Of a DNA stretch of 64,000 nt, positions 15,906 through 40,382 are shown piece by piece. Under the pieces are notes generated by a model. That model saw only the letters and a list, made by a program, of their open reading frames with translations, ran no database searches and was not told the origin of the DNA. Source of the DNA: an uncultured Chloroflexia bacterium (lineage in GTDB: Bacteria > Chloroflexota > Anaerolineae > Anaerolineales > UBA11858). Position numbers and translations under genes: made by a program. Numbering within the stretch: the first letter of the stretch is position 1; each line of letters opens with the position of its first letter. The stretch is taken from NCBI GenBank assembly GCA_963751575.1, contig CAVVUX010000002.1:367984-431983 (forward strand), read 5' to 3'.

Positions 15906-15907
15906 TT

Positions 15908-17206: not shown

Positions 17207-17249
17207 ACCGGGGAAAAAACTTGATCTGCAATAGGATTCTAGTCCGAAG

Positions 17250-18329: not shown

Positions 18330-18370
18330 GGCAGACCCCCAGCAGGGATCAGCGGCAGAGTCAGCAGTTC

Positions 18371-18415: not shown

Positions 18416-18435
18416 GATTATAGGAGCGATTGTAA

Positions 18436-18924
18436 ATGGATCTTTCTCAGGAAGACAGGGAGCTCATTCTTTTAGAGAAAATTGCCAATGACCCTGATGT
18501 AAATCAGGCGACCCTGGCAGAACTTCTTGATGTAGCAGTGGGTACTGTCAACTGGCATATTAAGCGGTTGGTATCCAAAGGTTATGTCAAAGCTAAGAGA
18601 GCCCAACGAAAAAAACTTCGCTACATCATCACTCCGGAAGGTATTGCCCTCAGAGCAAAACTGACTGTTCAGTATATCGAAAACCAAATGCGTATGTATC
18701 GGGAGACCCGCCAGAATGTAAAAAAACTTCTGGCTGAGATCAGGGAAGATGGTTTTAATGAAGTGAGAATATCCGGGAAAAGTGAAATTGCAGATGTGTG
18801 CCAGCTTACCTGCCTCGAACAAGGATTTAATGTGGTTGAGAGGGGCGATATACCTGTTTTAGAAGTATCAGGTTATTCAGTTGTCTTGAAAAAAGAACCT
18901 GCCAGGGAAAACCAGGCAGCTTGA
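18436..18924 (+). CDS. winged-helix transcriptional regulator, MarR-like (EPS-locus-associated type)
   Basis: 162 aa with wHTH segment NQATLAELLDVAVGTVNWHIKRLVSKGYVKAKR. It is embedded in the polysaccharide locus. Confidence 0.65.
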   Translation: MDLSQEDRELILLEKIANDPDVNQATLAELLDVAVGTVNWHIKRLVSKGYVKAKRAQRKKLRYIITPEGIALRAKLTVQYIENQMRMYRETRQNVKKLLAEIREDGFNEVRISGKSEIADVCQLTCLEQGFNVVERGDIPVLEVSGYSVVLKKEPARENQAA

Positions 18925-18972
18925 TTATACAAAGATTAGTGCCAGAGTGTAAGTTGCAGAAAAGGAATTGAA

Positions 18973-20040: not shown

Positions 20041-21020
20041 AAATGATGAATCCAGATCAATTTCCTGATCCATTTGAATTTTGGTTGGATAAGACAGTTT
20101 GTGTCACCGGCGGTGATGGATTCCTGGGCAGCTTTGTCCAAAAAACCCTTCGGGAGCGAGGCGTTGAGAATATTTTTATTCCCCTGATCGATGATTACGA
20201 TCTTACTGAAACTGACAATATCCGGCGCATGTTATCAGACGCAAAACCAGATATTATCATTCACCTGGCTGCCTTAGCTGGCGGCATTGGTGCTAATCGA
20301 GCTCGTCCGGCGGAATTTTTCTACAAGAATCTGATGATGGGGGTTCCGCTGATGCATGAAGCCTGGAAATTTGGTGTTAGTAAATTTGTGGCTATTGGAA
20401 CAATCTGTGCTTATCCAAAATACACCCCGGTTCCCTTTAAAGAAGAAAACCTCTGGGAAGGATATCCCGAAGAAACAAACGCACCATATGGATTGGCGAA
20501 AAAAATGTTATTGGTTCAGGCTCAAGCCTATCGTGAACAATATGGCTTTAATGCAATCTACCTGCTTCCGGTAAATCTTTATGGCCCCCGGGATAATTTT
20601 AACCTTGAAACATCCCATGTCATCCCTGCCTTGATCAGAAAGATGGTCGATGCAGCAGATCAGGGGATTGATGAAGTTGTATTGTGGGGTGATGGATCCC
20701 CGACCCGGGAATTTTTCTATGCCGGAGATGCAGCCAGGGGCATCGCGATGGCTGCTGAAAGGTACGATGGCAGCGATCCAGTTAATCTTGGCGCAGGAAT
20801 GGAGATCAGCATCAAGGATCTGGCAGAATTAATTGCCCGCTCAGTTGGCTATACGGGTCGGATAGTGTGGGATTCAAGCAAACCTAATGGCCAACCAAGA
20901 AGAGCCCTTGATACCCAACGGGCCAAAGAATATTTTGGATTTGAATCAGAAATGCCGTTTGAGGATGGAATTGTGAAAACGATCGAATGGTACAGGGCAA
21001 ACAAAGATCAAATTGTATAG
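20037..21020 (+). CDS. fcl: GDP-L-fucose synthase (GDP-4-keto-6-deoxymannose 3,5-epimerase/4-reductase)
   Basis: [21 protein letters not shown] and [12 protein letters not shown] 20037 overlaps the gmd stop (ATGA). The track start at 20007 is an upstream extension. Confidence 0.85.
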
Positions 21021-24510: not shown

Positions 24511-24556
24511 CGAATTACCAAACTTAGGTTAAGTTTTTGGAATAGTACAGGTGACC

Positions 24557-25552
24557 ATGAAATTTCTTATAGCTGGTTTTGGGTCCATTGGAAGAAGACA
24601 CTTCAGGAATTTACTTCACCTGGGTGAAGAGGATATTCTGTTCTACAGTACCAATCAGAGTACGATTGACAAAGATGAGATCGCTGGATACATCATTGAA
24701 CCAAGCTTGGATCAAGCCCTGGCCCATAAACCAGATGCGGTGATTGTTTCCAATCCTACTTCACTCCACCTGGATGTTGCTATTCCAGCAGCCAGGGCGG
24801 GCTGCCATCTATTAATAGAAAAGCCCCTTTCCCACGATCTGGGGCGGATTGATGAATTAGCAATGATAGTTGACCAAACAGGCAAGAATGTCCTAGTAGG
24901 ATTCCAGTTCAGATATCATCCAGGCTTACAGGAAATTAGAAAGCTAATCAGTGATGGAGTGATAGGTAAACCGTTATCTGTCCGGGCTCATTGGGGTGAA
25001 TACCTGCCCAATTGGCATCCCTGGGAAGATTACCAGACTGGTTATAGCGCTAGAGCAGATCTCGGAGGGGGGGTGCTGCTAACTCTCTGCCATCCACTAG
25101 ACTATCTACGGTGGCTGTTTGGGGAGATCAACGAAGTCCAGGGCTTTTTGGGCTGCAGTGGAGTCTTGGGTTTAACAGATGTTGAGGATACCGCTGAAAT
25201 AAACCTGAAGTTTGCAAACGACATGCTTGGCAGTGTCCACCTCGATTACAATCAACGCCCGCCTGCTCATAGATTGGAAATAATCGCTTCTGAAGGAACT
25301 GTACATTGGAATGGCATAAATGGCGAACTGTCAGTATTCCAGGCTTCAACAGGCAAATGGAAAGACTATCCCCTTCCTTTGGATTTTGACAGAAATGACT
25401 TATTCTTAGCCGAAATGGCTCACTTTTTGGAAATCACAAAGACAGATCAGATCCCAAGATGTTCTCTTGCAGATGGGATTACTGTCCAGCAAATTATTCA
25501 ATCTGTGAATAAATCCCACAGAGAGGGTGCCGTAGTAAGTATAACAATTTAA
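24557..25552 (+). CDS. Gfo/Idh/MocA-family NAD(P)-dependent oxidoreductase
   Basis: MKFLIAGFGSIGRRHFRNL is the Rossmann N-terminus, and LLIEKPLS matches the EKP motif of this family. Confidence 0.75.
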   Translation: MKFLIAGFGSIGRRHFRNLLHLGEEDILFYSTNQSTIDKDEIAGYIIEPSLDQALAHKPDAVIVSNPTSLHLDVAIPAARAGCHLLIEKPLSHDLGRIDELAMIVDQTGKNVLVGFQFRYHPGLQEIRKLISDGVIGKPLSVRAHWGEYLPNWHPWEDYQTGYSARADLGGGVLLTLCHPLDYLRWLFGEINEVQGFLGCSGVLGLTDVEDTAEINLKFANDMLGSVHLDYNQRPPAHRLEIIASEGTVHWNGINGELSVFQASTGKWKDYPLPLDFDRNDLFLAEMAHFLEITKTDQIPRCSLADGITVQQIIQSVNKSHREGAVVSITI

Positions 25553-25666: not shown

Positions 25667-25843
25667 ATGGTTAATAAATTAAGGAAAAACTGGCTTTTGA
25701 TTTTAGTAGTGATCTTGTTTGCAATCTACATGGGTGTGTATATTTTTCAGACCAGTTTTGTTATAGATGGAACGCGCTATTTTGTGCTGTTCGATGACGC
25801 GATGATTTCGATGCGATTTGCCAAGAATTTTGCTAAAGGATGA
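25667..25843 (+). pseudogene. truncated 5' remnant of a paralog of the membrane-protein gene at 27078
   Basis: The ~58-aa fragment [51 protein letters not shown] aligns almost residue-for-residue with the N-terminus of ORF 27078 ([51 protein letters not shown]). Similarity is lost at ~25855. Confidence 0.7.
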
Positions 25844-26755
25844 GGCTTATGAACAATAAAAAAATTACTGAACCTATCTATTGGGATTTTACAAACTATA
25901 TGCTCAAAGAAGCAATGGATGCTATGGATCACAGAGCAGACAATGAATTCAAAAGAATTTCTAGAGGGGAATCCTTAGAGATTGTCCACGGACAAGCTGT
26001 GAGGGATTATATATATTTTGTAGAATTTAATTGAAGGAGCTATATTTTTTTTAAACAAAATCGGATATCCGGTTACAGGATCAGCAATTGACATAGGATC
26101 AGGTACAGGAATTGGTGCATCGATCCTTTCTAACTATAAAGGTTTGAATAAGATTTTCGCCTTAGAATTTTCAGAAAGATTTGTTAAAAATATAATGCCA
26201 CTTGTGTTTGAGGAATTCTCTTCCCATCCGGGAAAAATTCAGAGAGTAGTAGGTGATTTCAACAATCTTAATGTCGAAGATGGTTCCATCGATTTAATAC
26301 TTGATATCGATTCATTGCATCATGCAGAGGATTTAGAAATTACTCTGAAGGAATGTAATCGAGCATTAAAACCAGGTGGAGTTCTAATTGCAATTGATAG
26401 GGCATGGGACGATTCTTACACAGATCTGCAACTGCAGGATATGCTGGATAAAGAACTGAATGATAATTTAAAGCGAAAATATAATATCCCCGAAAATCAA
26501 AGTTACACCCGCCGAGATTTTGGAGAACATGAATATACTATGAAACAATGGGAAAATGCTTTTTTAAATCAGGGGTTTGAAACTAACATTTTTTCACAGA
26601 AACATCCACCAGGTCTTATTAGTATCTTCGATAATATTCCAACATTTAAATTTTCAATTTGGATTTCTTCACTTATGTATAATTTAGGAATGAGAAGACA
26701 TATTATTTATGGATTTAACAAAACCAGAAGATTGTTTGTTTGTATTAAAACTTAA
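25840..26755 (+). pseudogene. class I SAM-dependent methyltransferase, one frame disruption, in AT-rich cassette
   Basis: ORF 25840-26034 (frame 1) is followed in frame 2 from ~26024 by NLIEGAIFFLNKIGYPVTGSAIDIGSGTGIGASILS (SAM motif I). That runs into track ORF 26144-26755 (LKPGGVLIAIDR, motif-IV-like). Confidence 0.6.
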
Positions 26756-27077: not shown

Positions 27078-28705
27078 ATGGTGGACATCATAAAGAAAAA
27101 TTGGCTATTTATAATATTATTGTCGATTATAGCTGTTTATATGGGTGTGTACATTTTCCAATCCAGTTTTATTTCAGATGGCACTCGCTATTTTGTGCTG
27201 TTTGACGACGCTATGATCTCAATGCGTTTCGCTAAGAACTTTGCCGAGGGACTTGGGTTAGTGTGGAATCCTGGAGAAACGCCAATAGAAGGTTATACCA
27301 ACCCTCTCTGGGTAGTTTTTATGTCTTTTTTCCATCTTTTCCCGATTCCGTGCCTCAAAAATCAGCTTATTTATTCAAATCAGTGGCGCGTTGTTTTTGC
27401 TGGCTAATCTCGTGTTTGTAAAAAAGATCACTGAGGAAATTTCAGAAGACTTCTCTTACTCCCTATCTGGCAGTGATCCTCACGGGTTTATATATCCCGC
27501 TGAATGATTGGGGCCTACAGGGAATGGAAGTCAGTGGGCTTGTCTTATTGGTTTCAGCGGTAAGTTTTTTGGCAATCCGATCACTTAAGAATGAGATGTT
27601 TTCTAAATGGATCTACATTTTATTGTTTGTAGGTACGTTAGTTCGGATGGATATCGTAGTACCCTACCTGGTTTTCTGGGGATTTCTGGTGATCTTTGAT
27701 GCAAAAAACAGGAAACAGCATCTTATTTGGGGTTTTGGACTGCTTGGCATTCTCCCTGATTGGTCAAACCCTGTTTCGTCATTTTTACTATGGAGATTTG
27801 CTGCCAAATACCTACTACCTGAAGATGACAGGGATATCCCTCGTTCTGCGAGTAAAAAGAGGGCTTTTTGTTCTTTATCATTTTATTCGGGATTTTAATT
27901 GGGTCCTGTTCATCCTGCCCTTTTTGGTTATCTTTATTCCGATTAAACTTATCAAAACTTCTGCTCGCATTGGTCTTTTCTGCCCAGATTGCGTACAGTG
28001 TTTACGTTGGTGGTGATGCATGGGAGCATATCGGGGGAGCCAATCGTTATCTATCAATAGCGATCCCCTTATTCTTTATCCTGTTTGCCTCTGGATGGGA
28101 ACAGATCAGGAATTCCCTGTTCGCAGCTGTGAAGGATCAAAAATCCATCATAAAAATCACGGGAAATATTGGGTTTGGTCTGGTTGTTTTGCTAAGTCTG
28201 CTGAACTTTAATTTCATGAAGGAGAACCAAAATAATAACAAGATAATATCGCTCCAAAATAATATCAAGAGAATGTTTTTATTGTATGAACCCCATTTTA
28301 TAGAAGGCAACAAATGGAATTTGGAGATCGTTCAGGCGGTTAATAAGGTCACAACACCCGAATGCTGTAATTGCTGTCACAGGAGCAGGATCAATTCCAT
28401 ATTTTACTGAGCGCCATGCCTATGATGTTTTGGGAAAGATCGATTCCTATATTGCCCATTTACCAAACCATATACCCACTGGTGGTTTAGTGAATATTCG
28501 TCCTGGGCATATGAAATGGGATTATGAATATACTTTTGGACAGTTAAGGCCGGATATGATCCTTGGTATTTGGGAAAACCGGGAAGAAGCAGAACCGATC
28601 CTCGCTGAATACTATACAACAATTAGTGTGAACGGAATGAATTATCTTGTTCTCAAGGGCTCTCCAGAAATACTCTGGGATCAGGTTGACCAGGAGGTTT
28701 ATTGA
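27078..28705 (+). pseudogene. polytopic GT-C-like membrane protein, at least five frame disruptions
   Basis: There are successive +1 shifts. Frame 0 reads ..[47 protein letters not shown]. Frame 1 from ~27345 reads [32 protein letters not shown]. Frame 2 from ~27450 reads SLTPYLAVILTGLYIPLNDWGLQGMEV... Frame 0 from ~27750 reads FSLIGQTLFRHFYYGDLLPNTYYLKMTG... Frame 1 from ~27930 reads ..AQIAYSVYVGGDAWEHIGGANRYLSIAIPLFF... Frame 2 from ~28370 reads ..GKIDSYIAHLPNHIPTGG..GHMKWDYEY.., with the stop at 28703-28705. Confidence 0.6.
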
Positions 28706-28848: not shown

Positions 28849-30594
<1,746 letters not shown>

Positions 30595-30666
30595 TGGGCT
30601 AATTGCAGTTGGATCTGATTTTAGAGCCATGGATTCTTCCAGTTGGATATTCCAAGGGAGCAAAAC

Positions 30667-31489
30667 ATGAACGGAATTCAAGAGTTATTTGACCTGACGG
30701 GAAGGGTTGCAATTGTAACTGGTGGAGCGGGGTTTCTTGGACAGCAGTTCTCAGAAGCATTAACTGAAGCTGGTGCCTCGATCGTTGTGGCTGATATCAA
30801 TCAAAAAGACGCTAGTCATTTTGCTGCAAAACTGGAAGACAAAGGTGGCAAAGCCATGGGTATTTCCGTGGATGTCACGGACCCTTACTCAGTTCAGAGC
30901 TTAATGGAAGAAACCCTGAAGAAATTTGGCAGATTGGATATTTTGGTTAATTCTGCCGCGCTGGACCCCAAATTTGAGGGAATTTCTTCTGAAAAACATG
31001 CCACGTCATTTGAAGAATTTTCACTTGATTCCTGGAAAGAAGCCCTTGATGTGAACTTGACTGGTATGTTCCTGATCTGTCAGGCAGGCGGCAAAGATCA
31101 TGAAGATCTCAGGCAAAGGATCGATCATCAATATATGTTCGACCTACGGCATAACTGGACCAGATCAGCGGTTATATGAGTCCCTTGGTGAACCCAGGCT
31201 CTACAAACCTGTCTACTACACAGTCAGCAAAGCTGGTGTATTGGGTCTAACAAAATATATCGCGACCTATTATGAAGGCACAGAGATCCGCTGTAATGCA
31301 CTCACACCGGGGGGAGTGGAACGAGAGCATGCTCAGGCATTTAAGGAAGCCTACAGCAGCAGAACAGTGCTGGGCAGGATGGCATATCCCCATGAGATGA
31401 AAGGAGCGGTTGTATTCCTCGCTTCTGAAGCATCGAGCTATATGACAGGATCTAATCTGGTTGTAGATGGAGGATGGACCGCATGGTAG
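30667..31489 (+). pseudogene. short-chain dehydrogenase/reductase, one frame disruption
   Basis: TGGAGFLGQ Rossmann motif, NSAA, then a +1 shift at ~31095-31100 (..CQAGGK | IMKISGKGSIINICS). The catalytic YTVSKAGVLGLTK (YxxxK) lies in the second frame. Confidence 0.7.
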
Positions 31490-32266
31490 AAGTACTGACA
31501 TTTATCCCGGCCCGGGGAGGATCAAAGGGTATTCCCCGGAAAAATATCAAGAATCTGGCTGGACATCCCTTGATTGCCTACAGCATAGCTGCATCCTTAG
31601 AGGCAGAATTGGTTAAGAGAACTATTGTCACCACTGATGATCCTGAAATAGCCGAGATTGCCCGGAAGTATGGGGCAGAAGTGCCTTTTCTACGGCCTGA
31701 AGAACTGGCGCAGGATGATACCCGGGATCTGCCGGTTTTTCAGCATGCATTGACCTGGCTAAAAGAGCAGGAGGGTTATCAGCCAGACCTGGTTGTCCAG
31801 CTCCGGCCAACCAGTCCCTTCCGTCCACCAGGCTTGATTGATGAAGCGATCAATATACTGTTGGATAACCCCGAGGCAACCTCTGTTCGAGGAGTTGTTC
31901 CTTCAAATCAGAATCCTTATAAAATGTGGCAGATCCTGGAAAATGGTGCAATGCGGCCAATTCTGGCATCTGGATCAATCAGAACCTTATAATATGCCCC
32001 GCCAGGAATTGCCGCAGACTTATTGGCAGACCGGTCACATTGATGTGATCAGGACTGAGACAATTCTCAATGGATCAATGACTGGCGATAATGTCTATGC
32101 TTGTCTGATTGACCCGATTTACTCGATAGATCTGGATAGTGCCCTGGATTGGGAGCAAGCAGAATCCCGGATCCCGGATTTGGGAACGAAAATCACGTTT
32201 CCTGGCTCCACAAAGATTGGATCCCTAAAGATATATCTCTGGTCGTTCTGGATTTTGATGGTGTGA
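31474..32266 (+). pseudogene. neuA: N-acylneuraminate (nonulosonate) cytidylyltransferase, one frame disruption
   Basis: FIPARGGSKGIPRKNIKNLAGHPLIAYSI is the CTP_transf_3 N-terminal signature, followed by LRPTSPFR. A +1 shift at ~31960 precedes ..EPYNMPRQELPQTYWQTGHIDVI. The 3' end overlaps, and may be fused to, the HAD phosphatase ORF. Confidence 0.75.
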
Positions 32267-32715
32267 TAACTGATGATCGGGTCTATGTCAATCAGCATGG
32301 CGAAGAATCTGTGGCTGCCCACCGGGGAGATGGCATGGGTATAGCCATGCTAAAGAAGACTGGTGTTGAAGTGATTATTTTGTCCACGGAAAAGAATCCA
32401 GGTCGTTCAGGCCCGGGCGATAAGTTGGGTGTTGAAGCTTTTCAGGGCATTGATGACAAAAAAAGCTACCTGGAATCTATTCTTACAGAGAAGAAAAGTC
32501 CGGGCAGCCAGGTTGCCTATGTGGGTAATGATTTGAATGATTTGGCTTGTTTTTCGCTGGTTGGTTGGGCTGTGGCTGTTGCTGATGCCCATCCTGACCT
32601 GCTTAATCAAGCTCAGCTCATTTTAAAAAAGAAAGGTGGTCATGGGGCAGTCCGGGAATTATGTGATTTGATTATTAATGATAAGAAACAATCTGAAACA
32701 AGAATTAAGGAGTGA
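32149..32715 (+). CDS. HAD-superfamily phosphatase, KdsC / nonulosonate-9-phosphate phosphatase type (start uncertain; possibly fused to neuA)
   Basis: LVVLDFDGVITDD is HAD motif I, and YVGNDLNDL is motif IV (GDxxND-like). The size and layout resemble KdsC. Confidence 0.7.
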   Translation: MGASRIPDPGFGNENHVSWLHKDWIPKDISLVVLDFDGVITDDRVYVNQHGEESVAAHRGDGMGIAMLKKTGVEVIILSTEKNPGRSGPGDKLGVEAFQGIDDKKSYLESILTEKKSPGSQVAYVGNDLNDLACFSLVGWAVAVADAHPDLLNQAQLILKKKGGHGAVRELCDLIINDKKQSETRIKE

Positions 32716-32717
32716 AT

Positions 32718-33622
32718 ATGACCAGAGAAGTAATGCTGGGTAATCGCCCGGTGGGAGATGGCCATCCAGTTTATATTATTGCTGAGATTGGGATTAACCA
32801 TAATGGTGATCTGGATGTAGCCAAACAACTGATTGATGCCGCAGTGGAAGCTGGTTGTGATGCAGTAAAATTCCAAAAGCGAACACCAGAATTATGTGTT
32901 CCGGAGGACCAGAGGGATAAAATGCGCCATACTCCCTGGGGATATATCAGCTATATGGAATATCGTGAAAAAGTGGAATTTGATCACGACCAGTTCAGTG
33001 AAATTGTAGATTATTGTGCCAAAAATCAAATAGATTGGCAGGCCTCCGCCTGGGACGAACTATCGGTGGATTTCCTGGAACAATTTAATCCTATTGCTCA
33101 TAAGGTAGCTTCAGCATCCCTGACAGATGCAGACCTGTTAAAGAAGATGCGCGATCAGGGAAGGCCTATCATTCTCTCGACGGGTATGTCCGAGATGGAG
33201 CAGATCGAAGCTGCTGTCGAAATGTTGGAACGGATGATTTGATCCTGGCCCACTGCACCAGCTCATACCCCTGTCCTCCAGGGGAATTGAACTTGAGAAT
33301 GATTCAAACATTGCGGAATATATATCCCTGTCCGATTGGATATTCAGGGCATGAAGTTGGATTACCAACAACCGTTGCAGCTGTGACTCTTGGTGCCTCG
33401 TTGATTGAACGCCATATTACACTCGATAGGGCTATGTGGGGTTCTGATCAGGCTGCATCTGTTGAACCGGCAGGCCTGAGACGACTGGTGAAATATATCC
33501 GCGTAGTGGAGGAAGCTCTTGGTGATGGAGTCAAAACTGTTTATGAGAGTGAAAAAACCAGTCTTGATAAATTGCGCCGAGTGGATTCTTTACCGATTAG
33601 GGGCAGGATCAAGAAGAATTAG
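32718..33622 (+). pseudogene. neuB: N-acetylneuraminate/nonulosonate synthase (NeuB family), one frame disruption
   Basis: PVYIIAEIGINHNGDLDVAKQLIDAAVEAGCDAVKFQ is the NeuB N-terminal block. A -1 shift at ~33215-33225 (..EAAVE | NVGTDDLILAHCTSSYPCPP) leads to GYSGHEVG and LIERHITLDR. Confidence 0.8.
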
Positions 33623-33662
33623 CCAAAGTGCAACTGATAGAAAGTGAGGAAACTCAGATAAT

Positions 33663-35212
33663 ATGAGACCCCTCTTGAAAAAACTTAATAGGGGAATACA
33701 AAAACTGCGCTTATTCTACCTGGTTGGTCAGTCTAAACAGGAAAATAGCCGCAGAAGTAGATCCGGATCGATCTGAAAAACCGGTCGTGTTTTTTAACGC
33801 CTCAGCCAGGTTGGAAGGATTGAATCAAAACGGGGCCTTTAATCTGATCTCAAGCTGGGGTATCCAATTAGCTGGCAGACAGGTTTATCATTTTTCTTGC
33901 CGATCCGGAATGAGCCAGTGTGTTATGGGAGCAGGGCTGGGTGATCCCATGGATCCTCCTCCCTGTCAGGGATGCATTCAATACACCAAACTCTTTACTG
34001 GCGCTGCCAAAAGTTTCTGGTTTGATTATTCAGAAGATCCCCAATTACGGGAAATCTTCAAGGTAAATCTGTATCTGATCTGCATAAAGATTGAATATAA
34101 AGGACGTCCCCTTGGTGAGCTTGTTACGGCAAGCGCTCGCTGGATCCTTCGCAGGCATCATTTAGAGGAAGACCAGGTCACTCGTTATATATTGTGTGAA
34201 TTCATTCTTTCAGCGAACTCTATTGCTGACGCTTTTTCTAGGTTTTTGATTGAAGTAACACCTGAAGTAATTGTCTTGTTTAACGGATTAATGTTTCCAG
34301 AGGCAGTAGTCAGTTGGGTCGCGAAAACAGAAGCAATCAGAGTAATCACCTATGAAGTGAATTTGCAGCCTTTCTCGGCTTTTTTTACGTCCTAACCAGG
34401 CAACCAGCTATCCAATGGATATTCCCCCGGATTTTAGACTCTCTGATCCACAAAATCAGCTTCTGGACCATTATCTGGAAAAACGGTTTCAAGGGGGATT
34501 TTAAAATGGCTGGAATTAAATTCTGGCCAGCTATGGACCAATTACCAGCTGATTTCTTAGCTCATGCAGACCAATTCGACCAGCTGGTTCCTGTCTTTAC
34601 TAATGTGATCTTTGATACCAGTCAGGCCTTTGCCAATGTGATCTTTTCGAGATATGTTCGATTGGCTTGACCATGTGATCGGGACAGCAGGCAGATATCC
34701 GGATACTCTTTTTGTGATCAGGGCCCATCCGGATGAGATGAGAAAAGGTAAAAGCAGCCAGGAAAGTGTCCTTTCCTGGGCAGCAGGTATTGATCTTGCC
34801 GAGCTTGCCAAATGTCATGATTATTGGACCGAATGAGACATTAAGTTCTTATGAGCTTATCCAACGGCTCAAGTTTGTCATGGTTTATAACTCTTCGATC
34901 GGTCTAGAAGCTTCTTTGTTAGGCCGTCCCGTCCTCTGTGCGGGAAAGGCCCGTTATACTCAATATCCAACCGTTTTCTTTCCGGATTCGTTGGCGCAGT
35001 ATGAAGATTTGTTGGATAACTTCCTCAGTTCGCCTTCGATCTTCCTTCCTGAAGATTTTAAAGAAAACGCACGCAAGTTCTTATTTTATCAACTGTACAG
35101 AACATCGCTTCCTTTTGGTGAATTTCTAACAGAACATACAACTCCTGGATATGTCCAGATTAAGAAATATTCCTTTGGAAAAACTAAAACCCGGAAGTTC
35201 AAAGGTCATTGA
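33663..35212 (+). pseudogene. capsule-biosynthesis (KpsS/KpsC, Capsule_synth-like) glycosyltransferase, four to five frame disruptions
   Basis: Segments occupy frames 0>1>2>0>1>2, with shifts at ~33720, ~34390, the G5 run 34493-34497, ~34650 and ~34800. Family-like blocks are VPVFTNVIFDTSQAF, LFVIRAHPDE and VMVYNSSIGLEASLLGRPVLCAGKARY. Confidence 0.55.
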
Positions 35213-35270
35213 CACAGTTGTAAATGGTATCCTTGCAGGTGAGAGAATTTATTTTGGAGACCGACGAATT

Positions 35271-36137
35271 ATGAAACTCTATTATCGGATCAAGCGCAAA
35301 CTCAAGTTGTTGAGGTTGAAATTCAGGAGATTTCAAGCAGCCAGGCGCTGGGGCAGAGATGCCCTGGCACAAGCTCCTCCTGTGCTTGGATTTGCAATTC
35401 CTAAAGCGGGCTCTCATCTGATAATCCAGATCTTATATGGGTTAACCAGGATTGGCCCATTTGTTAAACCAGGCTTGCCGCCGGTAAATCGATTTGAGGA
35501 TAATACAAAACAGATTGAAGCAACCATTCTCGATGAAATTACTGGGATGCGTTCTGGAGAGATCCGGTACGGATATTTGCACTCGAAAGAGCCCTACCTC
35601 TCTGCAATCACCGCTCCTGGTAGGGCATCAATTTTTGTCTACCGAGATCCCCGAGACCAATTGGTCTCCCTTGTTTTTTATGCAAAAGATATGCAGCTTG
35701 ATCATCACATGCATAAATATTTCGATCAAGGATTATCGACCATGGAAGAACGCTTAAATGTTGTGATAGAAGGTAGTGATCTTCCTGAACTGCTGATGGT
35801 GAACGTCCGGGAGAGATATGAGGATTATCTGGGCTGGTTTGAAGAGGACGATGTTCTCTGCCTGAAATTTGAGGATCTTATTCTTGATCAGGAAAACACC
35901 CTGGGGAACATTCTTGATTATATTGAACAATTTGGAGTTTCTCTTTCAGTATCCAGACCTGAGGCAATCAAGGTATTAATGGACGCTATACAACCAAAAG
36001 ACTCAGGTACTTTTCGTAAAGGCGAGCCTGGCAGTTGGAAAGATCACTTTACTGAGGAAAATAAACGACGATTCAAAGCGGTTGCAGGAGACTTGTTATC
36101 CAGATTGGGATACGAGGAAAATGACCAGGATTGGTGA
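35271..36137 (+). CDS. sulfotransferase
   Basis: GFAIPKAGSHLI is 5'-PSB-like and FVYRDPRDQLVS is 3'-PB-like. The ORF is open from 35151, but ATG 35271 (MKLYYRIKRKLK) is the likely start. Confidence 0.7.
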   Translation: MKLYYRIKRKLKLLRLKFRRFQAARRWGRDALAQAPPVLGFAIPKAGSHLIIQILYGLTRIGPFVKPGLPPVNRFEDNTKQIEATILDEITGMRSGEIRYGYLHSKEPYLSAITAPGRASIFVYRDPRDQLVSLVFYAKDMQLDHHMHKYFDQGLSTMEERLNVVIEGSDLPELLMVNVRERYEDYLGWFEEDDVLCLKFEDLILDQENTLGNILDYIEQFGVSLSVSRPEAIKVLMDAIQPKDSGTFRKGEPGSWKDHFTEENKRRFKAVAGDLLSRLGYEENDQDW

Positions 36138-37129: not shown

Positions 37130-37798
37130 ATGACAAAATTAGCAGCCCTTGTTCCCATGAAACATAATTCCCAACGCGTTCCAGAAAAGAATTATCGGGA
37201 TCTAAGCGGAAAACCATTATTCCATCATATTTTGTTGACTTTATTATCCGTTCCGGAAATTGATCTGATTTGTGTTGACACTGATAGCATAGTGATAAAA
37301 CAAGGCATATTGGAACACTTTCCAGCTGTCACTGTAATTGACCGCCCGCTGGACTTGAGGGCTGATACCATCCCTATGAACCGGATTATCGAACATGATA
37401 TGTCAGTGATCCAGGCTGATTTATATCTGCAAACTCACAGTACCAATCCATTGTTAAAGGCCGAGACTATATCCAGGTCCATCAGGTTGTATCATGATCT
37501 AAAAGATCAATCTGACTCTTTATTCTCGGTTACTCGTTTGCAAAAACGGCTTTACAGCAGGGCAGGTAAGGCATTAAACCATGACCCTTCAGAATTGGTC
37601 CAAACCCAGGATTTACCACCTTTGTACGAAGAAAATTCATGCATCTACCTTTTTTCTGAGGCTGGAATGAAAAAATCTGGCCATAGGATCGGCAGCAATC
37701 CTTTGATGTTTGAAATTGACCCTTCTGAAGCCTGGGATATAGATACACCGCTGGATTTTAAGATTGTCCAATGTTTGATGAATCAGAAAGGTAGGTGA
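37130..37798 (+). CDS. acylneuraminate cytidylyltransferase-family (CTP_transf_3) nucleotidyltransferase, second copy
   Basis: LAALVPMKHNSQRVPEKNYRDLSGKPLFHHIL matches the N-terminal CTP_transf_3 pattern. The ORF is an intact 222 aa. Confidence 0.7.
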   Translation: MTKLAALVPMKHNSQRVPEKNYRDLSGKPLFHHILLTLLSVPEIDLICVDTDSIVIKQGILEHFPAVTVIDRPLDLRADTIPMNRIIEHDMSVIQADLYLQTHSTNPLLKAETISRSIRLYHDLKDQSDSLFSVTRLQKRLYSRAGKALNHDPSELVQTQDLPPLYEENSCIYLFSEAGMKKSGHRIGSNPLMFEIDPSEAWDIDTPLDFKIVQCLMNQKGR

Positions 37799-37801
37799 AT
37801 T

Positions 37802-38770
37802 ATGCCGATAGTTTTGTTTTCAGCGCCCTACATGATTCCATTTCTTGACAGGTTTCAACCTGTTCTGGCCAGATTTGGGGTAGAGTTGATCGTCCCCGAG
37901 GTTGAAGAGCGACTTGAAGAGGAACAGATTCTGGAATTTGCAGGAAAATTTGATGGGGTGATTTGTGGAGATGACCGGTTTTCCCGCCAGGTTATAGAGG
38001 CCTGCCTGCCAAGATTGAAGGTGATCTCCAAATGGGGTACGGGGATCGATTCGATCGATAAAGAGGCCTGTCAGGAGTTAGGAGTTGTTCTCGGTAATAC
38101 ACCAAATGCCTTTACAATTCCTGTTGCAGATTCGATTCTGGGTTATATGCTCAGCTTCGCCCGCCAGCTTCCCCAAATGGATCGAGCCATGAAAGAAGGA
38201 AACTGGAAAAAGATTCCGGGAAAGTCTTTGAGTGAATGTATCCTTGGCGTCATAGGTATCGGCAATATTGGTAGTGCAGTCGTTACCCGGGCCCATGCTT
38301 TTAATATGAAAATTCTTGGTACTGATATTCGCCAGATCGATTCGGATTTTGTCAAAAAATATTCCTTGGAAATGGTCAGTTTGAAGGAGTTGCTGGAAAA
38401 ATCAGATTTCATCAGCATCAACTGCGATTTGAATCCATCCAGCCATCACATCATTGATAAAACTGCTCTTTCGATTATCAAACCTGGAGCAATCCTGATC
38501 AACACTGCCCGGGGTCCATTAGTGGATGAGAAAGCCTTAATAGAGGCTTTGCAATCTGGGCGATTGGCTGGAGCAGCCCTGGATGTTTATGAGTTTGAAC
38601 CTTTGCGAGAGGACAATCGGCTGAGGACATTTGCCAACGTGTTGTTAGCGCCTCATAACTCCAATTCAAGTCCGGGTGCCTGGGAGAAGGTTCACTGGAA
38701 TACAATCAAGAATTTGTTGGATGGTTTGGATATACGTTACCAGATCAATGAAAAGGGTGAAATCTCATGA
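37802..38770 (+). CDS. D-isomer-specific 2-hydroxyacid dehydrogenase family protein
   Basis: GVIGIGNIGSAV is the NAD-binding motif. LINTARGPLVDEKAL and APHNSN match the catalytic R/E/H pattern of the family. Confidence 0.8.
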   Translation: MPIVLFSAPYMIPFLDRFQPVLARFGVELIVPEVEERLEEEQILEFAGKFDGVICGDDRFSRQVIEACLPRLKVISKWGTGIDSIDKEACQELGVVLGNTPNAFTIPVADSILGYMLSFARQLPQMDRAMKEGNWKKIPGKSLSECILGVIGIGNIGSAVVTRAHAFNMKILGTDIRQIDSDFVKKYSLEMVSLKELLEKSDFISINCDLNPSSHHIIDKTALSIIKPGAILINTARGPLVDEKALIEALQSGRLAGAALDVYEFEPLREDNRLRTFANVLLAPHNSNSSPGAWEKVHWNTIKNLLDGLDIRYQINEKGEIS

Positions 38771-39525
38771 AAAATAAAAGTGTCGTGATTACAGGCGCGG
38801 CTGGCGGAATAGGTCAAGCATCGGTCAAAGTATTCATTAAAGATGACTGGTTTGTTTTTGGTATAGATCGATCATCTTATCCGGGTAAGTTTCCAGATTC
38901 CGGTTTATTTATTAAAGCTGATGTCGCCGAGGAAGAAGATTGGAATGAAATTCATTCTAAGATCTCCAAACTCACAAACAATATTGATGGATTGATTAAC
39001 AATGCTGCTATTCAGATTACTAAACCGCTGGTAGAAACATCAGTTGAAGAGTGGGACAAAGTATTGAACGCAAACTTGAGATCAGTATTTCTCAGTGTGA
39101 AAATGCTCTATCCATTATTGAAATTGGGTAGAGGAGGCGCAATAGTCAATGTTTCATCGGTCCATGCAGTAGCAACATCGAAAGATATCGCAGCTTATGC
39201 TGCTTCAAAGGGCGGCATGCTGGCCCTGACCAGGGCCCTGGCTGTTGAATTAGCGGAAGACAATATCAGGGTCAATGCGGTTCTGCCGGGAGCAGTCGAT
39301 ACCGGAATGCTCAGGGCTGGTTTAAACAGGGATCATGCAGGCGGAGGTTCCGCCGAGGAACGCCTGGAAAATTTAGCCCGCAGAACGGTCAGCGGGAAGA
39401 TCGGAACACCGGAAGAGATTGCCCGGGCAATCCTTTTTCTGACTGATAATGATAGGTCGTCCTTTATAACCGGCCAGCCATTGATCATTGATGGTGGTGC
39501 CACCGCAAGATTGAGCACAGAATAA
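38767..39525 (+). CDS. short-chain dehydrogenase/reductase
   Basis: TGAAGGIGQ, NNAA, YAASKGGMLALTR (YxxxK) and IIDGG. The start overlaps the upstream stop (ATGA). Confidence 0.8.
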   Translation: MKNKSVVITGAAGGIGQASVKVFIKDDWFVFGIDRSSYPGKFPDSGLFIKADVAEEEDWNEIHSKISKLTNNIDGLINNAAIQITKPLVETSVEEWDKVLNANLRSVFLSVKMLYPLLKLGRGGAIVNVSSVHAVATSKDIAAYAASKGGMLALTRALAVELAEDNIRVNAVLPGAVDTGMLRAGLNRDHAGGGSAEERLENLARRTVSGKIGTPEEIARAILFLTDNDRSSFITGQPLIIDGGATARLSTE

Positions 39526-39529
39526 GTCT

Positions 39530-40382
39530 ATGACTTCTTTTAAGCAATCTCTCCGGGATATGCTCCCACCTGAACTTTACCAGTCTCTCCAGAATGGCAG
39601 AGATGCCATTGTTCGTCTGGCTGACATTCCAGGTGTATATCTTCATCCCTGGAAATTGGATTCCAATCGCAGGATCATCAAATATCAAAACAGGTATTCT
39701 GGACAACGCTGTTTTGTGATCGGCAATGGTCCAAGTTTGAACAAGATGGACCTATCTTACCTGAAGAATGAAATCACCTTTGGTATGAACAGGGTTTATC
39801 TTGCATTTAATGAGTGGAAATTCCAAACAAGTTTTTTGGTGTCAATAAACGATCTGGTGATTGAACAGAGCCGGGAGGAATTACGTGAATCTGACCATGC
39901 CCAAATTCTTTTCATGGCGGTCACGAGAGCTGCTGTACCCGGAACGGCCAACCGGATGAGCATACTCATTTTTTGCATACACATCCTATACCGGACCAAA
40001 ATTTTCTGATCACCTGCGGGCACGTTTTTGGGAGGGAGCTACAGTGACTTATATCTGTCTCCAGCTGGCCTATTGTATGGGTTTCCAGGAAGTTTATTTG
40101 ATCGGCGTGGATCATAATTTTGATACAAAAGGAAAAGCCAATCAGACAATTACATCAAAAGGAAATGACCCCAATCATTTTAGTCCTGATTATTTTGGGA
40201 AAGGTTTCCGCTGGCAGCTGCCGGACCTGGAGACCTCAGAAAGAGCGTATCGCCTGGCAGATCAAAAATATTTGCAAAATGGTCGGCAAATTTTTGATGC
40301 TACGCTTGGTGGAAAATTATCAGTCTTCCCAAAGGTAGATTATAAAGGACTATTCAGCGGAGATCGGAGGGGCATCATATAA
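39530..40382 (+). pseudogene. CstII (GT42)/Maf (DUF115)-like putative nonulosonic-acid transferase, frame shift plus in-frame TGA
   Basis: CFVIGNGPSLNKMDLSYLKNEITFGMNRVYLAF parallels the GNGPSL block of CstII/Maf proteins, and TVTYICLQLAYCMGFQEVYLIGVDHNF parallels the second conserved block. The frame moves 2>0 between 39861 and 39897, and there is an in-frame TGA at 39957-39959. Confidence 0.55.

What the first reader, a model, noticed from the sequence alone, without database searches (positions are those of the whole stretch)
30667..33622. Nonulosonic-acid module with a KdsC-type phosphatase between neuA and neuB
Seen in sequence:
- The gene order is SDR, then a CMP-nonulosonate synthetase (FIPARGGSKGIPRKN), then a HAD phosphatase (LDFDGVITDD / GNDLNDL), then a NeuB-family synthase (IIAEIGINHNGD...FQ).
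- The phosphatase ORF overlaps the neuA 3' end and may be fused to it.
- No NeuC-type UDP-GlcNAc 2-epimerase is recognisable in the module.

Established knowledge: a synthase plus a dedicated phosphatase is the hallmark of the sugar-6-phosphate to nonulosonate-9-phosphate route, as described for the Bacteroides KDN pathway and for animal sialic acid synthesis. The common bacterial NeuC/NeuB route does not use it.

Inference: the locus makes a CMP-activated 9-carbon (or related) ulosonic acid by the phosphorylated route. Combined with sulfation in the same locus, this would be an uncommon glycan chemistry.
Basis: partly seen in the sequence, partly recalled or inferred. Interest (0 to 1): 0.65.

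Follow-up and report, generated by a model that had tools for sequence, protein, structure and literature searches.

The report
Phosphate-route nonulosonic acid module, Anaerolineae
This is a gene set, conserved across Anaerolineae (Chloroflexota), that most likely builds a CMP-activated nine-carbon sialic-acid-like sugar from a sugar phosphate using a synthase plus a phosphatase fused to the activating enzyme; it is a new member of a known pathway type, and in this window every gene carries one-base frameshifts.

Summary
Window 30667-33622 (+) encodes an SDR, a CMP-nonulosonate synthetase, a YrbI/KdsC-type HAD phosphatase and a NeuB-family synthase, with no NeuC.

Two corrections:
- NeuA and the phosphatase form one 410-aa fusion protein, as in more than 120 relatives.
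- All three genes in this window are broken by one-base indels.

Support for the phosphorylated route is comparative only:
- The SAF-less NeuB shares K56, R57, a non-Glu at 134 and S/T246 with characterised sugar-6-phosphate synthases (human/mouse NANS, BT1714, P. parvum Kdn-9-P synthetase). It lacks the residues of free-sugar enzymes.
- This NeuB clade sits beside a phosphatase in 73 of 80 species-level loci (67 fused, 6 separate HAD ORFs, some cut by contig ends). None has NeuC.
- The HAD keeps its catalytic motifs and carries the BT1713 residues E56/R64/K67, where KdsC has R/R/T.
- NeuB is 61% identical, and the HAD 48%, to the pair in a Streptomyces-type cluster matching the Kdn-teichulosonic-acid cluster.

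The sugar is unresolved. The NeuA pocket lacks the Kdn gatekeeper Arg, and a conserved SDR is unexplained. PAPS synthesis and a sulfotransferase are often linked to the module. Verdict: new member of a known kind, moderate interest.

The parts
28864..30594 (+). Bifunctional sulfate adenylyltransferase / APS kinase (PAPS synthesis), intact, directly upstream of the module
   Evidence: Pfam PUA_2 + ATP-sulfurylase + APS_kinase. NCBIfam NF004040 scores 834.8 bits against a cut-off of 669. 95% identical to the L001 orthologue. Found upstream of SDR1 in 30 of 80 related loci.
30667..31489 (+). Classical SDR oxidoreductase (SDR1), sugar-acid-dehydrogenase-like. Its stop overlaps the NeuA start. One frameshift at about 31087.
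   Evidence: adh_short and adh_short_C2 on both halves. The intact L001 orthologue has 273 aa. Best NCBIfam hits are PRK09186 and gluconate 5-dehydrogenase, both below cut-off. Best PDB hit is gluconate 5-dehydrogenase 1vl8, 145 bits. Present in 61 of 80 related loci. Indel position.
31483..32715 (+). One gene for a bifunctional protein. The N-terminal part (to about 32190) is a CMP-nonulosonate synthetase domain. The C-terminal part (from about 32230) is a YrbI/KdsC-family HAD phosphatase domain. Broken here by indels at about 31967 and 32227 and a compensating pair at about 32401/32419.
   Evidence: PF02348 at 80 bits. TIGR01670 at 109.8 bits, above its cut-off of 106.95. More than 120 homologues of about 405 aa carry both domains. 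The corrected reading is 82% identical to P0001 with no gaps. Catalytic residues D10, D12, S54, K80, D104 and D107, and substrate residues E56, R64 and K67 (BT1713 numbering), are invariant or nearly so in 120 homologues.
32718..33622 (+). Short NeuB-family synthase (about 301 aa, TIM barrel only, no SAF/antifreeze-like domain). AAGGAG lies 5 nt before the ATG. One frameshift at about 33225.
   Evidence: PF03102 on both halves. 92% identical to intact P0271 of L001. TIGR03569 scores 272.6 bits, below the cut-off of 399.65. All PEP, metal and catalytic residues are kept, and the signature K56 R57 S134 G214 S246 is present.
33663..35271 (+). Capsule_synth (KpsC/KpsS-like) putative ulosonic-acid transferase. 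Heavily frameshifted here (at least 6 frame changes).
   Evidence: The L001 orthologue (534 aa) hits PF05159 at 33.6 bits against a cut-off of 20, with weak BFO_1060/TIGR04396 hits. tblastn pieces fall in three frames. Adjacent to NeuB in 61 of 80 loci.
35271..36137 (+). Sulfotransferase (Sulfotransfer_1)
   Evidence: PF00685 at 51.6 bits. 84% identical to the L001 orthologue. A sulfotransferase is present in 38 of 80 related loci.

Best explanation
The window comes from an Anaerolineales (Chloroflexota) genome. Positions 30667-33622 are the core of a glycan-precursor operon that is conserved across Anaerolineae.

Proposed mechanism:
1. The SAF-less NeuB condenses phosphoenolpyruvate with a hexose 6-phosphate, most likely mannose 6-phosphate, to give a nonulosonate 9-phosphate (Kdn-9-P or a close relative).
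2. The C-terminal HAD domain of the fusion protein removes the 9-phosphate.
3. The N-terminal cytidylyltransferase domain of the same protein activates the free sugar with CTP to the CMP-sugar.
4. The adjacent KpsC/KpsS-like protein probably transfers the sugar. The neighbouring sulfotransferase, supplied by the upstream PAPS synthase, probably sulfates the resulting glycan.
5. The co-translated SDR probably modifies the sugar acid or its precursor.

Shown: the family memberships, the fusion, the conserved gene order, the residue patterns and the relatedness to the Streptomyces-type cluster.
Inferred: the substrates, the order of the steps, the sugar's identity, sulfation of this particular sugar, and the SDR's role.

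In this window the genes are interrupted by one-base indels. These are more likely assembly errors than decay, but that is not settled.
For: Fusion:
- More than 120 homologues at 64-81% identity are about 405-aa NeuA+HAD proteins. Several are labelled as from Anaerolineales or Chloroflexi metagenome-assembled genomes (MAGs).
- The syntenic, intact locus L001 has SDR 273 aa, NeuA-HAD 412 aa and NeuB 301 aa.
- The corrected window protein is 82% identical to P0001 with no gaps.

Conservation:
- At least 589 hits were found among GTDB species genomes.
- Of the best 80 loci, 67 carry the fusion and 6 a separate HAD ORF, some of them cut by contig ends. SDR1 is in 61, Capsule_synth in 61 and NeuC in 0.

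NeuB:
- All catalytic residues are kept.
- K56, R57, S134, G214 and S246 (N. meningitidis numbering) match the sugar-6-P enzymes. P. parvum Kdn-9-P synthetase has K,R,S,G,T. BT1714 has K,R,D,D,T. Human and mouse NANS have K,S,D,G,S.
- They do not match NmNeuB, PseI or SpsE, which have T/M, H/Y/F, E, D and P/E/A. In the window clade 85 of 85 members have K56 and R57.
- In the neighbour-joining tree the clade sits inside the group holding NANS, PpKdn9PS and BT1714.
- PMC8208679 places Nm E134 near where the ManNAc-6-P phosphate would lie, and links the beta2-alpha2 loop to phosphate use.
- The P. parvum enzyme uses Man-6-P and does not convert free mannose (PMC6200933).

HAD:
- DxD, S, K, D104 and D107 are invariant. 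E56/R64/K67 are as in BT1713, whereas three KdsC structures have R/R/T or A.
- In three loci (L075, L078, L080; MAGs labelled Ignavibacterium, Chlorobiales and Chlorobiaceae) the same NeuB clade sits next to a standalone HAD of a different lineage. That HAD has the TGE...R..K residues and a canonical GDDxND motif.

Closest studied system:
- The HAD's best PDB match is 3mmz, whose near-identical database homologues are named Streptomyces.
- The Streptomyces-type locus L085 has NeuA-HAD followed by a 312-aa SAF-less NeuB, next to a polysialyltransferase-like gene. This matches the SCO4879-4881 description.
- NeuB is 61% identical (368 bits) and the HAD 48% identical to the L085 proteins.
- That cluster is cited as the teichulosonic-acid cluster, and the polymer contains Kdn (PMC13011467, PMC11481543).
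Against: - No enzyme of this clade has been assayed.
- Bootstrap support for the phosphate-route grouping is weak: 57% with BT1714 and 37% with NANS/PpKdn9PS. Only four phosphate-route and three free-sugar reference enzymes were available.
- The HAD scores higher against proteobacterial KdsC (NF007019 at 148 bits; 2r8e at 110 bits) than against BT1713 (NF058599 at 98 bits; 3e81 at 83 bits). It passes neither equivalog cut-off.
- The Asp after Gly in motif IV (BT1713 D103, which I recall as a Mg2+ ligand) is Asn in all 120 fusions. The mouse CMAS C-domain also has Asn there, in GNEVSD. I recall that no phosphatase activity was detected for that domain.
- The NeuA pocket departs from both Kdn- and Neu5Ac-type enzymes. 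The Kdn gatekeeper Arg196 of PpNeuA is Met, the conserved Gln (Nm Q104) is Arg, and Tyr (Nm Y179) is Asp (PMC12934254).
- The SDR has no assigned step.
- In this window the genes are frameshifted.
Confidence: 0.7

Rival explanations
1. Animal-type Neu5Ac route. NeuB condenses ManNAc-6-phosphate with PEP, the HAD removes the 9-phosphate and NeuA makes CMP-Neu5Ac. The sugar is N-acetylneuraminic acid rather than Kdn.
For: Among characterised enzymes, human NANS is the most similar to the window NeuB: 39-42% identity against 29-37% for the others. The NeuA gatekeeper position is hydrophobic (Met), as in Neu5Ac-active enzymes, which have Leu or Phe there. S. coelicolor has a putative ManNAc-6-P 2-epimerase, SCO4873, in the related cluster.
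Against: No NanE, NanK, NeuC or GNE-type gene was seen in the window or in the 80 related loci. The Streptomyces polymer linked to the closest NeuB/HAD pair contains Kdn. The conserved Gln that contacts the N-acetyl nitrogen in CMAS enzymes is Arg here.
Confidence: 0.15
2. Free-sugar route. The fused HAD domain is a non-catalytic oligomerisation module, as proposed for vertebrate CMP-sialic acid synthetase, and NeuB uses an unphosphorylated sugar.
For: The invariant D103N change is shared with the mouse CMAS C-domain. PMC8636478 says the significance of the vertebrate C-domain is unknown. From memory (Oschlies et al. 2009), no phosphatase activity was found for it.
Against: Unlike the mouse domain, the bacterial fusions keep E56 and R64. 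The same NeuB clade pairs with standalone HADs that have the canonical GDD motif and no NeuA to oligomerise. The NeuB signature residues match the phosphate-route enzymes. No NeuC is present to supply a free N-acetylhexosamine.
Confidence: 0.1
3. Eight-carbon Kdo-like pathway. The module makes CMP-Kdo (or similar) for a KpsC/KpsS-type poly-Kdo glycan, and the HAD acts as a true Kdo-8-P phosphatase.
For: The HAD scores better against KdsC models and structures than against BT1713. The adjacent transferase matches PF05159, the KpsC/KpsS family; from established knowledge these are beta-Kdo transferases.
Against: The synthase belongs to the NeuB family, not the KdsA/DAHP-synthase family. The KdsC Arg at the BT1713 E56 position is Glu in 120 of 120 fusions. 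The closest NeuB/HAD pair lies in a cluster tied to a Kdn polymer. From established knowledge, Chloroflexota lack LPS.
Confidence: 0.05
4. In this particular genome the module is a decaying, non-functional remnant. The frameshifts are real mutations.
For: At least 15 one-base indels relative to L001 lie in 28.8-36.1 kb, and further frame changes occur in other genes of the 23-45 kb glycan locus. Housekeeping genes on both flanks read intact. The nearby 'unk529' gene also has a duplicated 5' fragment.
Against: No in-frame stop codon appeared in the corrected SDR, NeuA-HAD or NeuB readings. Corrected proteins are 82-95% identical to L001 at about 83% DNA identity, which points to purifying selection. 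All 15 gaps are 1-2 bases long, and those I inspected do not lie in long homopolymer runs. One +1/-1 pair lies 18 nt apart, a pattern typical of consensus errors in a poorly covered, strain-variable region.
Confidence: 0.25

Closest known systems
Streptomyces teichulosonic-acid (Kdn polymer) cluster, SCO4873-SCO4882, with the SCO4879-4881 operon (NeuE-like, NeuA, NeuB)
   Same: A SAF-less NeuB of about 300-312 aa, 61% identical to the Anaerolineales NeuB. It lies directly after a NeuA-HAD protein whose HAD domain (PDB 3mmz type; LSTE...R..K, GNDxND) is 48% identical. Both hosts lack an LPS-bearing outer membrane (established knowledge).
   Different: Streptomyces uses DUF6716 and polysialyltransferase-like transferases, with no detectable similarity to the Capsule_synth protein here. 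L085 has no SDR1, PAPS synthase or sulfotransferase nearby. The Streptomyces NeuA domain shows no significant similarity in its visible C-terminal part. By my reading of L085, and as reported for S. albus, it carries the Kdn gatekeeper Arg, which is Met here. That L085 corresponds to SCO4879-4881 rests on synteny and the published descriptions, not on the S. coelicolor sequence itself.
Bacteroides thetaiotaomicron Kdn pathway: BT1714 Kdn-9-P synthase, BT1713 Kdn-9-P phosphatase, CMP-Kdn synthetase
   Same: The same three activities and the same logic (sugar-6-P plus PEP, dephosphorylation, CMP activation), encoded side by side. The HAD substrate residues E56/R64/K67 are shared. NeuB K56/R57 and S/T246 are shared.
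   Different: BT1714 is 346 aa with a SAF domain and only 34-36% identical. BT1713 is a standalone 164-aa protein with a GDD motif, whereas the HAD here is fused and has GND.
Vertebrate CMP-sialic acid synthetase (CMAS) together with NANS
   Same: The same two-domain architecture: an N-terminal cytidylyltransferase and a C-terminal KdsC-like HAD domain. The G-N start of motif IV is shared. NANS is the most similar characterised synthase, at 39-42% identity.
   Different: The mouse C-domain lacks the E56 and R64 equivalents, and its function is described as unknown (PMC8636478). NANS has a SAF domain. The vertebrate genes are not clustered.
[quoted passage not shown]
   Same: The synthase is also short (312 aa, no SAF) and has the identical K56 R57 S134 G214 signature. 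It is strict for Man-6-P.
   Different: Only 33-35% identical. PpNeuA has Arg196 and the conserved Gln and Tyr, where the NeuA here has Met, Arg and Asp. No cognate phosphatase is known in the alga.

Membership tests
NeuB / sialic acid synthase family (PF03102) | NeuB TIM-barrel domain recognised by the family profile | tested here: met
   PF03102 at 131.3 and 130.1 bits on the two halves, against a cut-off of 22.1.
NeuB / sialic acid synthase family (PF03102) | PEP, metal and catalytic residues (Nm E25, K53, K129, S132, S154, Y186, S213, H215, E234, H236, D247) | tested here: met
   All are present in the window, in L001 and in 85 of 85 clade members.
NeuB / sialic acid synthase family (PF03102) | C-terminal SAF / antifreeze-like domain with Arg314 | tested here: not met
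   The protein ends about 40 residues after the barrel. Only PF03102 hits, and the precomputed annotation of the L001 gene shows NeuB only. SAF-less NeuBs are a known environmental group (PMC8208679).
N-acetylneuraminate synthase equivalog (TIGR03569) / pseudaminic acid synthase (TIGR03586) | Score at or above the curated cut-off | tested here: not met
   272.6 bits against 399.65, and 214.7 bits against 340.25.
Sugar-6-phosphate-using nonulosonate-9-P synthases (NANS, BT1714, PpKdn9PS) | Lys at Nm position 56, non-Glu at 134 and Ser/Thr at 246 (an empirical signature derived here from 4 phosphate-route versus 3 free-sugar enzymes) | tested here: met
   Window has K56, R57, S134, G214 and S246.
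Sugar-6-phosphate-using nonulosonate-9-P synthases (NANS, BT1714, PpKdn9PS) | Phylogenetic grouping with the characterised members | tested here: inconclusive
   The neighbour-joining topology groups them, but bootstrap support is 37-57% (77% if 6ncs is included).
Sugar-6-phosphate-using nonulosonate-9-P synthases (NANS, BT1714, PpKdn9PS) | Activity on Man-6-P or ManNAc-6-P and not on the free sugar | not testable with these tools
   Needs an enzyme assay.
YrbI/KdsC-family type C0 HAD phosphatases (TIGR01670) | Subfamily profile score at or above the cut-off | tested here: met
   109.8 bits (window piece) and 126.9 bits (L001), against a cut-off of 106.95.
YrbI/KdsC-family type C0 HAD phosphatases (TIGR01670) | HAD motifs I-IV (DxD, S/T, K, and acidic residues in motif IV) | tested here: inconclusive
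   D10, D12, S54, K80, D104 and D107 are invariant. The first motif IV Asp (D103) is Asn in 120 of 120 fusions and in 3mmz.
Kdn-9-P phosphatase (BT1713 type, NF058599) | Equivalog score at or above 180 | tested here: not met
   88.4 and 98.4 bits.
Kdn-9-P phosphatase (BT1713 type, NF058599) | Substrate residues Glu56, Arg64 and Lys67. I recall these as specificity markers from Lu et al. 2009 and Daughtry et al. 2013; those papers were not held. | tested here: met
   E, R and K in the window, in 120 of 120 fusions and in 118-119 of 120 BT1713 homologues. KdsC structures have R, R and T or A.
Kdo-8-P phosphatase KdsC (NF007019) | Equivalog score at or above 208, and Arg at the BT1713 E56 position | tested here: not met
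   126.8 and 147.9 bits. The position holds Glu instead of Arg.
CMP-nonulosonate synthetases (CTP_transf_3, PF02348) | Family profile and the N-terminal PARGGSKG.P.KN nucleotide loop | tested here: met
   PF02348 at 80.2 bits. The motif is present. The best PDB hit is V. cholerae CMP-Neu5Ac synthetase 6ifd, 114 bits.
Kdn-specific CMP-sialic acid synthetases (PpNeuA type) | Gatekeeper Arg196 (PMC12934254) | tested here: not met
   Met in the window and in 119 of 120 homologues. The rule is not universal: the same paper reports that the trout enzyme has Leu yet prefers Kdn.
Long-form (vertebrate-type) CMAS architecture | Cytidylyltransferase and KdsC-like domains in one polypeptide | tested here: met
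   Both Pfam domains occur in each of more than 100 listed homologues of about 405 aa. The window reads through after indel correction.
Streptomyces Kdn-teichulosonic acid cluster (SCO4879-4881 type) | Close relatedness of the NeuB and HAD components | tested here: met
   61% identity (368 bits) and 48% identity to the L085 proteins. This is far above any other studied NeuB, the next best being 42% or less.
Streptomyces Kdn-teichulosonic acid cluster (SCO4879-4881 type) | The same transferase set (DUF6716, polysialyltransferase-like) | tested here: not met
   No similarity between Capsule_synth and the DUF6716 protein.

The most novel reading that the evidence does not exclude
Anaerolineae may make a nonulosonic acid that is not plain Kdn or Neu5Ac. 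It could be a Kdn derivative altered by the conserved SDR, which resembles gluconate 5-dehydrogenase and KduD, for example at C5. It would then be activated by a synthetase whose sugar pocket has Arg, Asp and Met in place of the usual Gln, Tyr and Arg/Leu. A KpsC/KpsS-like enzyme would transfer it into a sulfated envelope or sheath polymer. That would be a new sugar, and as far as I know the first sulfated nonulosonic-acid glycan in bacteria. It could also be one source of the 'sialic acid' and sulfated-polymer signals I recall being reported for granular-sludge EPS.
Probability: 0.2. Interest if true: 0.7.

Novelty: new member of a known kind. Interest (0 to 1): 0.4.

Why it matters
- Distribution: the phosphate-route sialic-acid-type pathway is so far characterised enzymatically in animals, one Bacteroides species and one alga. 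This result would place it as a near-universal trait of Anaerolineae, abundant filamentous bacteria of sludge, digesters and sediments.
- Evolution of CMAS: bacterial relatives of the vertebrate two-domain CMP-sialic acid synthetase still carry an intact phosphatase active site. That bears on where the enigmatic vertebrate C-domain came from.
- Sulfation: the frequent linkage with PAPS synthesis and a sulfotransferase gives a concrete, testable candidate locus for acidic sulfated surface polymers in these organisms.
- Practical value: the residue signatures tabulated here (NeuB K56/R57/non-Glu134; HAD E56/K67) could help predict route and substrate for unannotated NeuB clusters.

Tried and rejected
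- The window's own contig is not in the gene-position collection; an exact look-up of its Sat/CysC protein found nothing.
- The nine-sequence NeuB alignment A1 was too divergent for the search for related loci. The three-sequence alignment A2 worked, but it returned only the closest 80 loci, so the genome scan gave no distant NeuB clades.
- Wang 2008, Lu 2009 and Daughtry 2013 could not be retrieved. The E56/K67 specificity claim therefore rests on my memory plus the residue tabulation.
- Only neighbour-joining was available, so there is no maximum-likelihood tree.
- I tested whether the Capsule_synth protein is homologous to the Streptomyces NeuE-like gene. It is not.
- I looked for reports of nonulosonic acids in Anaerolineae. 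There were only passing mentions.
- Structure prediction was not run. The tool returns no coordinates, so distances from K56/R57 to the substrate could not be measured, and fold matches would repeat the sequence matches.
- I considered and rejected two separate overlapping genes for NeuA and HAD. The only start codon for a separate HAD would be a TTG with 117 nt of overlap, and all relatives are fused.

Full report
**What is in the sequence**

Between 30667 and 33622 on the + strand lie an SDR, a CTP_transf_3 cytidylyltransferase, a YrbI/KdsC-type HAD and a NeuB-family synthase. The end coordinates are exact.

None of the genes reads through, however:
- The SDR changes frame near 31087.
- The cytidylyltransferase changes frame near 31967.
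- The cytidylyltransferase-to-HAD junction changes frame near 32227.
- NeuB changes frame near 33225.
- Inside the HAD, a +1/-1 pair 18 nt apart turns the conserved VVQARA into GRSGPG.

The 'overlap' of the phosphatase ORF with neuA is one of these indels. After correcting four single bases, the region gives a gapless 410-aa protein that is 82% identical along its whole length to an intact 412-aa homologue.

**Fusion and source organism**

A search with the joined protein found more than 120 homologues at 64-81% identity. Almost all are about 405 aa long and carry both PF02348 and PF08282. Where the source names them, they come from Anaerolineales or Chloroflexi metagenome-assembled genomes (MAGs). 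One is a 709-aa NeuA-HAD-NeuB single ORF.

The best hit lies on a 75.8-kb Anaerolineales contig, L001, which is syntenic with window 22-42 kb and has intact genes. Its order is: Sat/CysC 576 aa, SDR 273, NeuA-HAD 412, NeuB 301, Capsule_synth 534, sulfotransferase 288, GT2, a second cytidylyltransferase, a 2-hydroxyacid dehydrogenase, an SDR, an MptE-like protein and PMT_2.

**How conserved the module is**

A scan of one genome per GTDB species found at least 589 loci encoding a close relative of this NeuB. The best 80 (62-95% identity) are overwhelmingly Anaerolineales, Anaerolineaceae or Chloroflexota MAGs, including Leptolinea, Pelolinea, Brevefilum, Ca. Villigracilis and Anaerolinea. A few bins are labelled Acidimicrobiia, Poribacteria, Myxococcota, Pirellulaceae, Gemmatimonadetes, Chlorobiales or Ignavibacterium.

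I labelled the ORFs of these loci with the L001 proteins:

| Feature | Loci (of 80) |
|---|---|
| NeuA-HAD fusion ORF | 67 |
| Separate HAD ORF (some cut by contig ends) | 6 |
| SDR1 | 61 |
| Capsule_synth protein | 61 |
| Sulfotransferase | 38 |
| Sat/CysC | 30 |
| GFO/IDH/MocA oxidoreductase | 35 |
| NeuC-type epimerase | 0 |

The core unit is therefore SDR1, NeuA-HAD, NeuB and Capsule_synth, often embedded in PAPS and sulfotransferase genes.

**NeuB**

The protein is about 301 aa and has the TIM barrel only. It scores below the NCBIfam cut-offs for Neu5Ac synthase and pseudaminic acid synthase. SAF-less NeuBs are a recognised, mostly environmental group (PMC8208679).

I assembled reference enzymes from several sources:
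- P. parvum Kdn-9-P synthetase, from the supplement of PMC6200933. It is also short and is strict for Man-6-P.
- BT1714, from a contig carrying a 99%-identical BT1713. An exact-sequence look-up names it B. thetaiotaomicron sialic acid synthase.
- Human and mouse NANS. My recalled human sequence was verified by exact look-up.
- N. meningitidis NeuB, C. jejuni PseI, B. subtilis SpsE and the short 6ncs protein, from PDB alignments.

Identity to the window protein over the barrel:

| Reference | Identity |
|---|---|
| Human/mouse NANS | 41-42% |
| SpsE, 6ncs | 37% |
| BT1714, PpKdn9PS | 35-36% |
| PseI | 32% |
| NmNeuB | 29% |

In a neighbour-joining tree the window clade (bootstrap 100%) branches with NANS plus PpKdn9PS (37%), then BT1714 (57%), then 6ncs (77%). 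It is separate from NmNeuB, SpsE and PseI. The topology favours the phosphate-route group, but the support is weak.

Residues are more telling. All PEP, metal and catalytic positions are kept. Five positions separate the reference enzymes:

| Nm position | Sugar-6-P enzymes | Free-sugar enzymes | Window |
|---|---|---|---|
| 56 | K | T, M | K |
| 57 | R or S | H, Y, F | R |
| 134 | S or D | E | S |
| 214 | G (D in BT1714) | D | G |
| 246 | S or T | P, E, A | S |

The window pattern is identical to that of the P. parvum enzyme at four of the five positions. K56 and R57 are invariant in all 85 clade members. PMC8208679 independently notes that Nm E134 lies near where a 6-phosphate would sit, and that the human beta2-alpha2 loop favours the phosphorylated substrate.

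**HAD domain**

It passes the YrbI subfamily cut-off but neither the KdsC nor the BT1713 equivalog cut-off. Overall it scores better against proteobacterial KdsC than against BT1713.

At the residues that contact the substrate it is BT1713-like. E56, R64 and K67 are invariant in 120 fusions, whereas three KdsC structures have R, R and T or A. I recall E56 and K67 being described as the Kdn-9-P versus Kdo-8-P markers by Lu and Daughtry, but I could not retrieve those papers.

The catalytic DxD, Ser, Lys, D104 and D107 are invariant. D103 is Asn in every fusion and in PDB 3mmz. The mouse CMAS C-domain has the same Asn (GNEVSD) but has lost the E56 and R64 equivalents.

In three loci (L075, L078, L080; MAGs labelled Ignavibacterium, Chlorobiales and Chlorobiaceae) the same NeuB clade, at 63-67% identity to L001 NeuB in the genome scan, follows SDR1 and a standalone HAD of another lineage. 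That HAD has TGE...R..K and a canonical GDDxND motif. One NeuB clade thus pairs with two different lineages of E56/K67-type phosphatases, one of them not attached to any NeuA. This is the strongest argument that the phosphatase step is real.

**Closest studied system**

The best PDB match of the HAD, 3mmz, has near-identical homologues that the databases name as Streptomyces proteins. In a Streptomyces-type genome (L085, GCA_001700545.1) this HAD forms the C-terminus of a NeuA-like ORF, which is interrupted by an assembly gap. A 312-aa SAF-less NeuB follows it. The pair lies beside polysialyltransferase-like, GT2 and DUF6716 genes, between sdh and bmp/ABC/cdd genes.

This matches the published description of SCO4879 (NeuE-like), SCO4880 (NeuA) and SCO4881 (NeuB) (PMC3479208). 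Those genes are part of the cluster cited as the teichulosonic-acid cluster (PMC13011467). The polymer is built of galactose and Kdn (PMC11481543).

The Anaerolineales NeuB is 61% identical (368 bits) to the L085 NeuB, and the HAD is 48% identical. That is far closer than to any other studied enzyme. It is the main reason to favour a Kdn-type sugar.

**What does not fit plain Kdn**

PMC12934254 shows that Arg196 of P. parvum CMP-Kdn synthetase is a gatekeeper for Kdn. It also reports that Kdn-only bacteria, including Streptomyces albus, have Arg there.

In the window-type NeuA domain:
- That position is Met (119 of 120).
- The otherwise conserved Gln (Nm Q104) is Arg (120 of 120).
- The Tyr (Nm Y179) is Asp.

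The second cytidylyltransferase of the locus (window 37130-37798) does have Arg and Tyr at these positions.

SDR1 is translationally coupled to NeuA-HAD and present in 61 of 80 loci, yet it has no role in the known pathway. Its best matches are gluconate 5-dehydrogenase and KduD-type sugar-acid dehydrogenases. The sugar may therefore be modified, and its identity stays open.

**The frameshifts**

Against L001, the 7.3 kb from 28864 to 36137 shows 15 gaps, all 1-2 bases long, at 83% DNA identity. There is also the compensating pair, and more frame changes in other genes of the glycan locus.

Housekeeping genes on both flanks look intact: holB, pcrA, tsaE, tsaB and udg on one side, and panB, panE, panC, coaX, coaBC and a glycogen phosphorylase on the other.

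Several points suggest consensus errors in a poorly covered, strain-variable region: no in-frame stop codon appeared in the corrected SDR, NeuA-HAD and NeuB readings, the corrected proteins are highly conserved, the indels I inspected avoid long homopolymer runs, and there is a +1/-1 pair. Real inactivation in this genome cannot be excluded without reads.

**Verdict**

The module belongs to a known kind: the phosphate-route biosynthesis of a nonulosonic acid, with a vertebrate-like synthetase-phosphatase fusion. Its closest relative is the Streptomyces-type Kdn cluster.

Specific to the Anaerolineae version are the conserved SDR, the unusual NeuA sugar pocket, the KpsC/KpsS-like transferase, and the frequent linkage to PAPS synthesis and sulfotransferases.

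Noticed in passing
window 37130-40382: A second cytidylyltransferase (222 aa), a 2-hydroxyacid dehydrogenase, an SDR and an MptE/Maf-like protein (frameshifted). This set is conserved with the NeuB module in about 22-25 of 80 related loci. The cytidylyltransferase has Arg and Tyr at the PpNeuA R196 and Y183 positions, unlike the NeuA-HAD protein.
   Followed up: partly
window about 23000-45000 versus 1-22000 and 53700-62300: One-base indels are concentrated in the glycan locus (unk475, unk529, SDR1, NeuA-HAD, NeuB, Capsule_synth, MptE, PMT_2, GT2). Housekeeping genes on both flanks read intact.
   Followed up: partly
window 25670-25849 and 26144-26755: An extra copy of the first 60 codons of the 529-aa unknown gene, followed by a methyltransferase fragment, lies upstream of the real (frameshifted) gene at 27081-28696. 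The window also lacks the TauE and Usp genes that L001 has before Sat/CysC.
   Followed up: no
window 7487-21020: A further glycan pathway: an ABC-2 transporter pair, a formyltransferase, a DegT-type aminotransferase, a GT4, and several NDP-sugar dehydratases/epimerases including a GDP-mannose 4,6-dehydratase. This suggests a formylated amino-deoxy sugar exported by an ABC transporter.
   Followed up: no
window 49586-51356: An adenosine deaminase ORF overlaps a second Sulfotransfer_1 ORF in another frame.
   Followed up: no
P0012 (ENA contig): A 709-aa single ORF joins NeuA, HAD and NeuB. It is either a true triple fusion or a read-through error.
   Followed up: no
L039, L043, L060, L068: These genomes carry two window-clade NeuB paralogues, one after NeuA-HAD and one after GFO-SDR1. 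L039 and L043 have a third, longer NeuB ORF (445/640 aa). The window's NeuB groups with the copy that follows SDR1.
   Followed up: partly
L075:2500-3036, L078:7434-7952, L080:7382-7900: In MAGs labelled Ignavibacterium, Chlorobiales and Chlorobiaceae the same NeuB clade follows SDR1 and a standalone HAD with the BT1713-type residues and a canonical GDDxND motif. No NeuA was detected within the flanks.
   Followed up: partly
PDB 3ewi (mouse CMAS C-domain) versus window 32530-32550: The vertebrate C-domain and the bacterial fused HADs share Asn at the first motif IV acidic position (GNEVSD versus GNDLND). Standalone KdsC and BT1713 have GDD.
   Followed up: partly
window 24551-25552: A GFO/IDH/MocA oxidoreductase (inositol 2-dehydrogenase-like, below cut-off) accompanies the module in 35 of 80 loci. 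In some genomes it sits directly before SDR1-NeuB.
   Followed up: no
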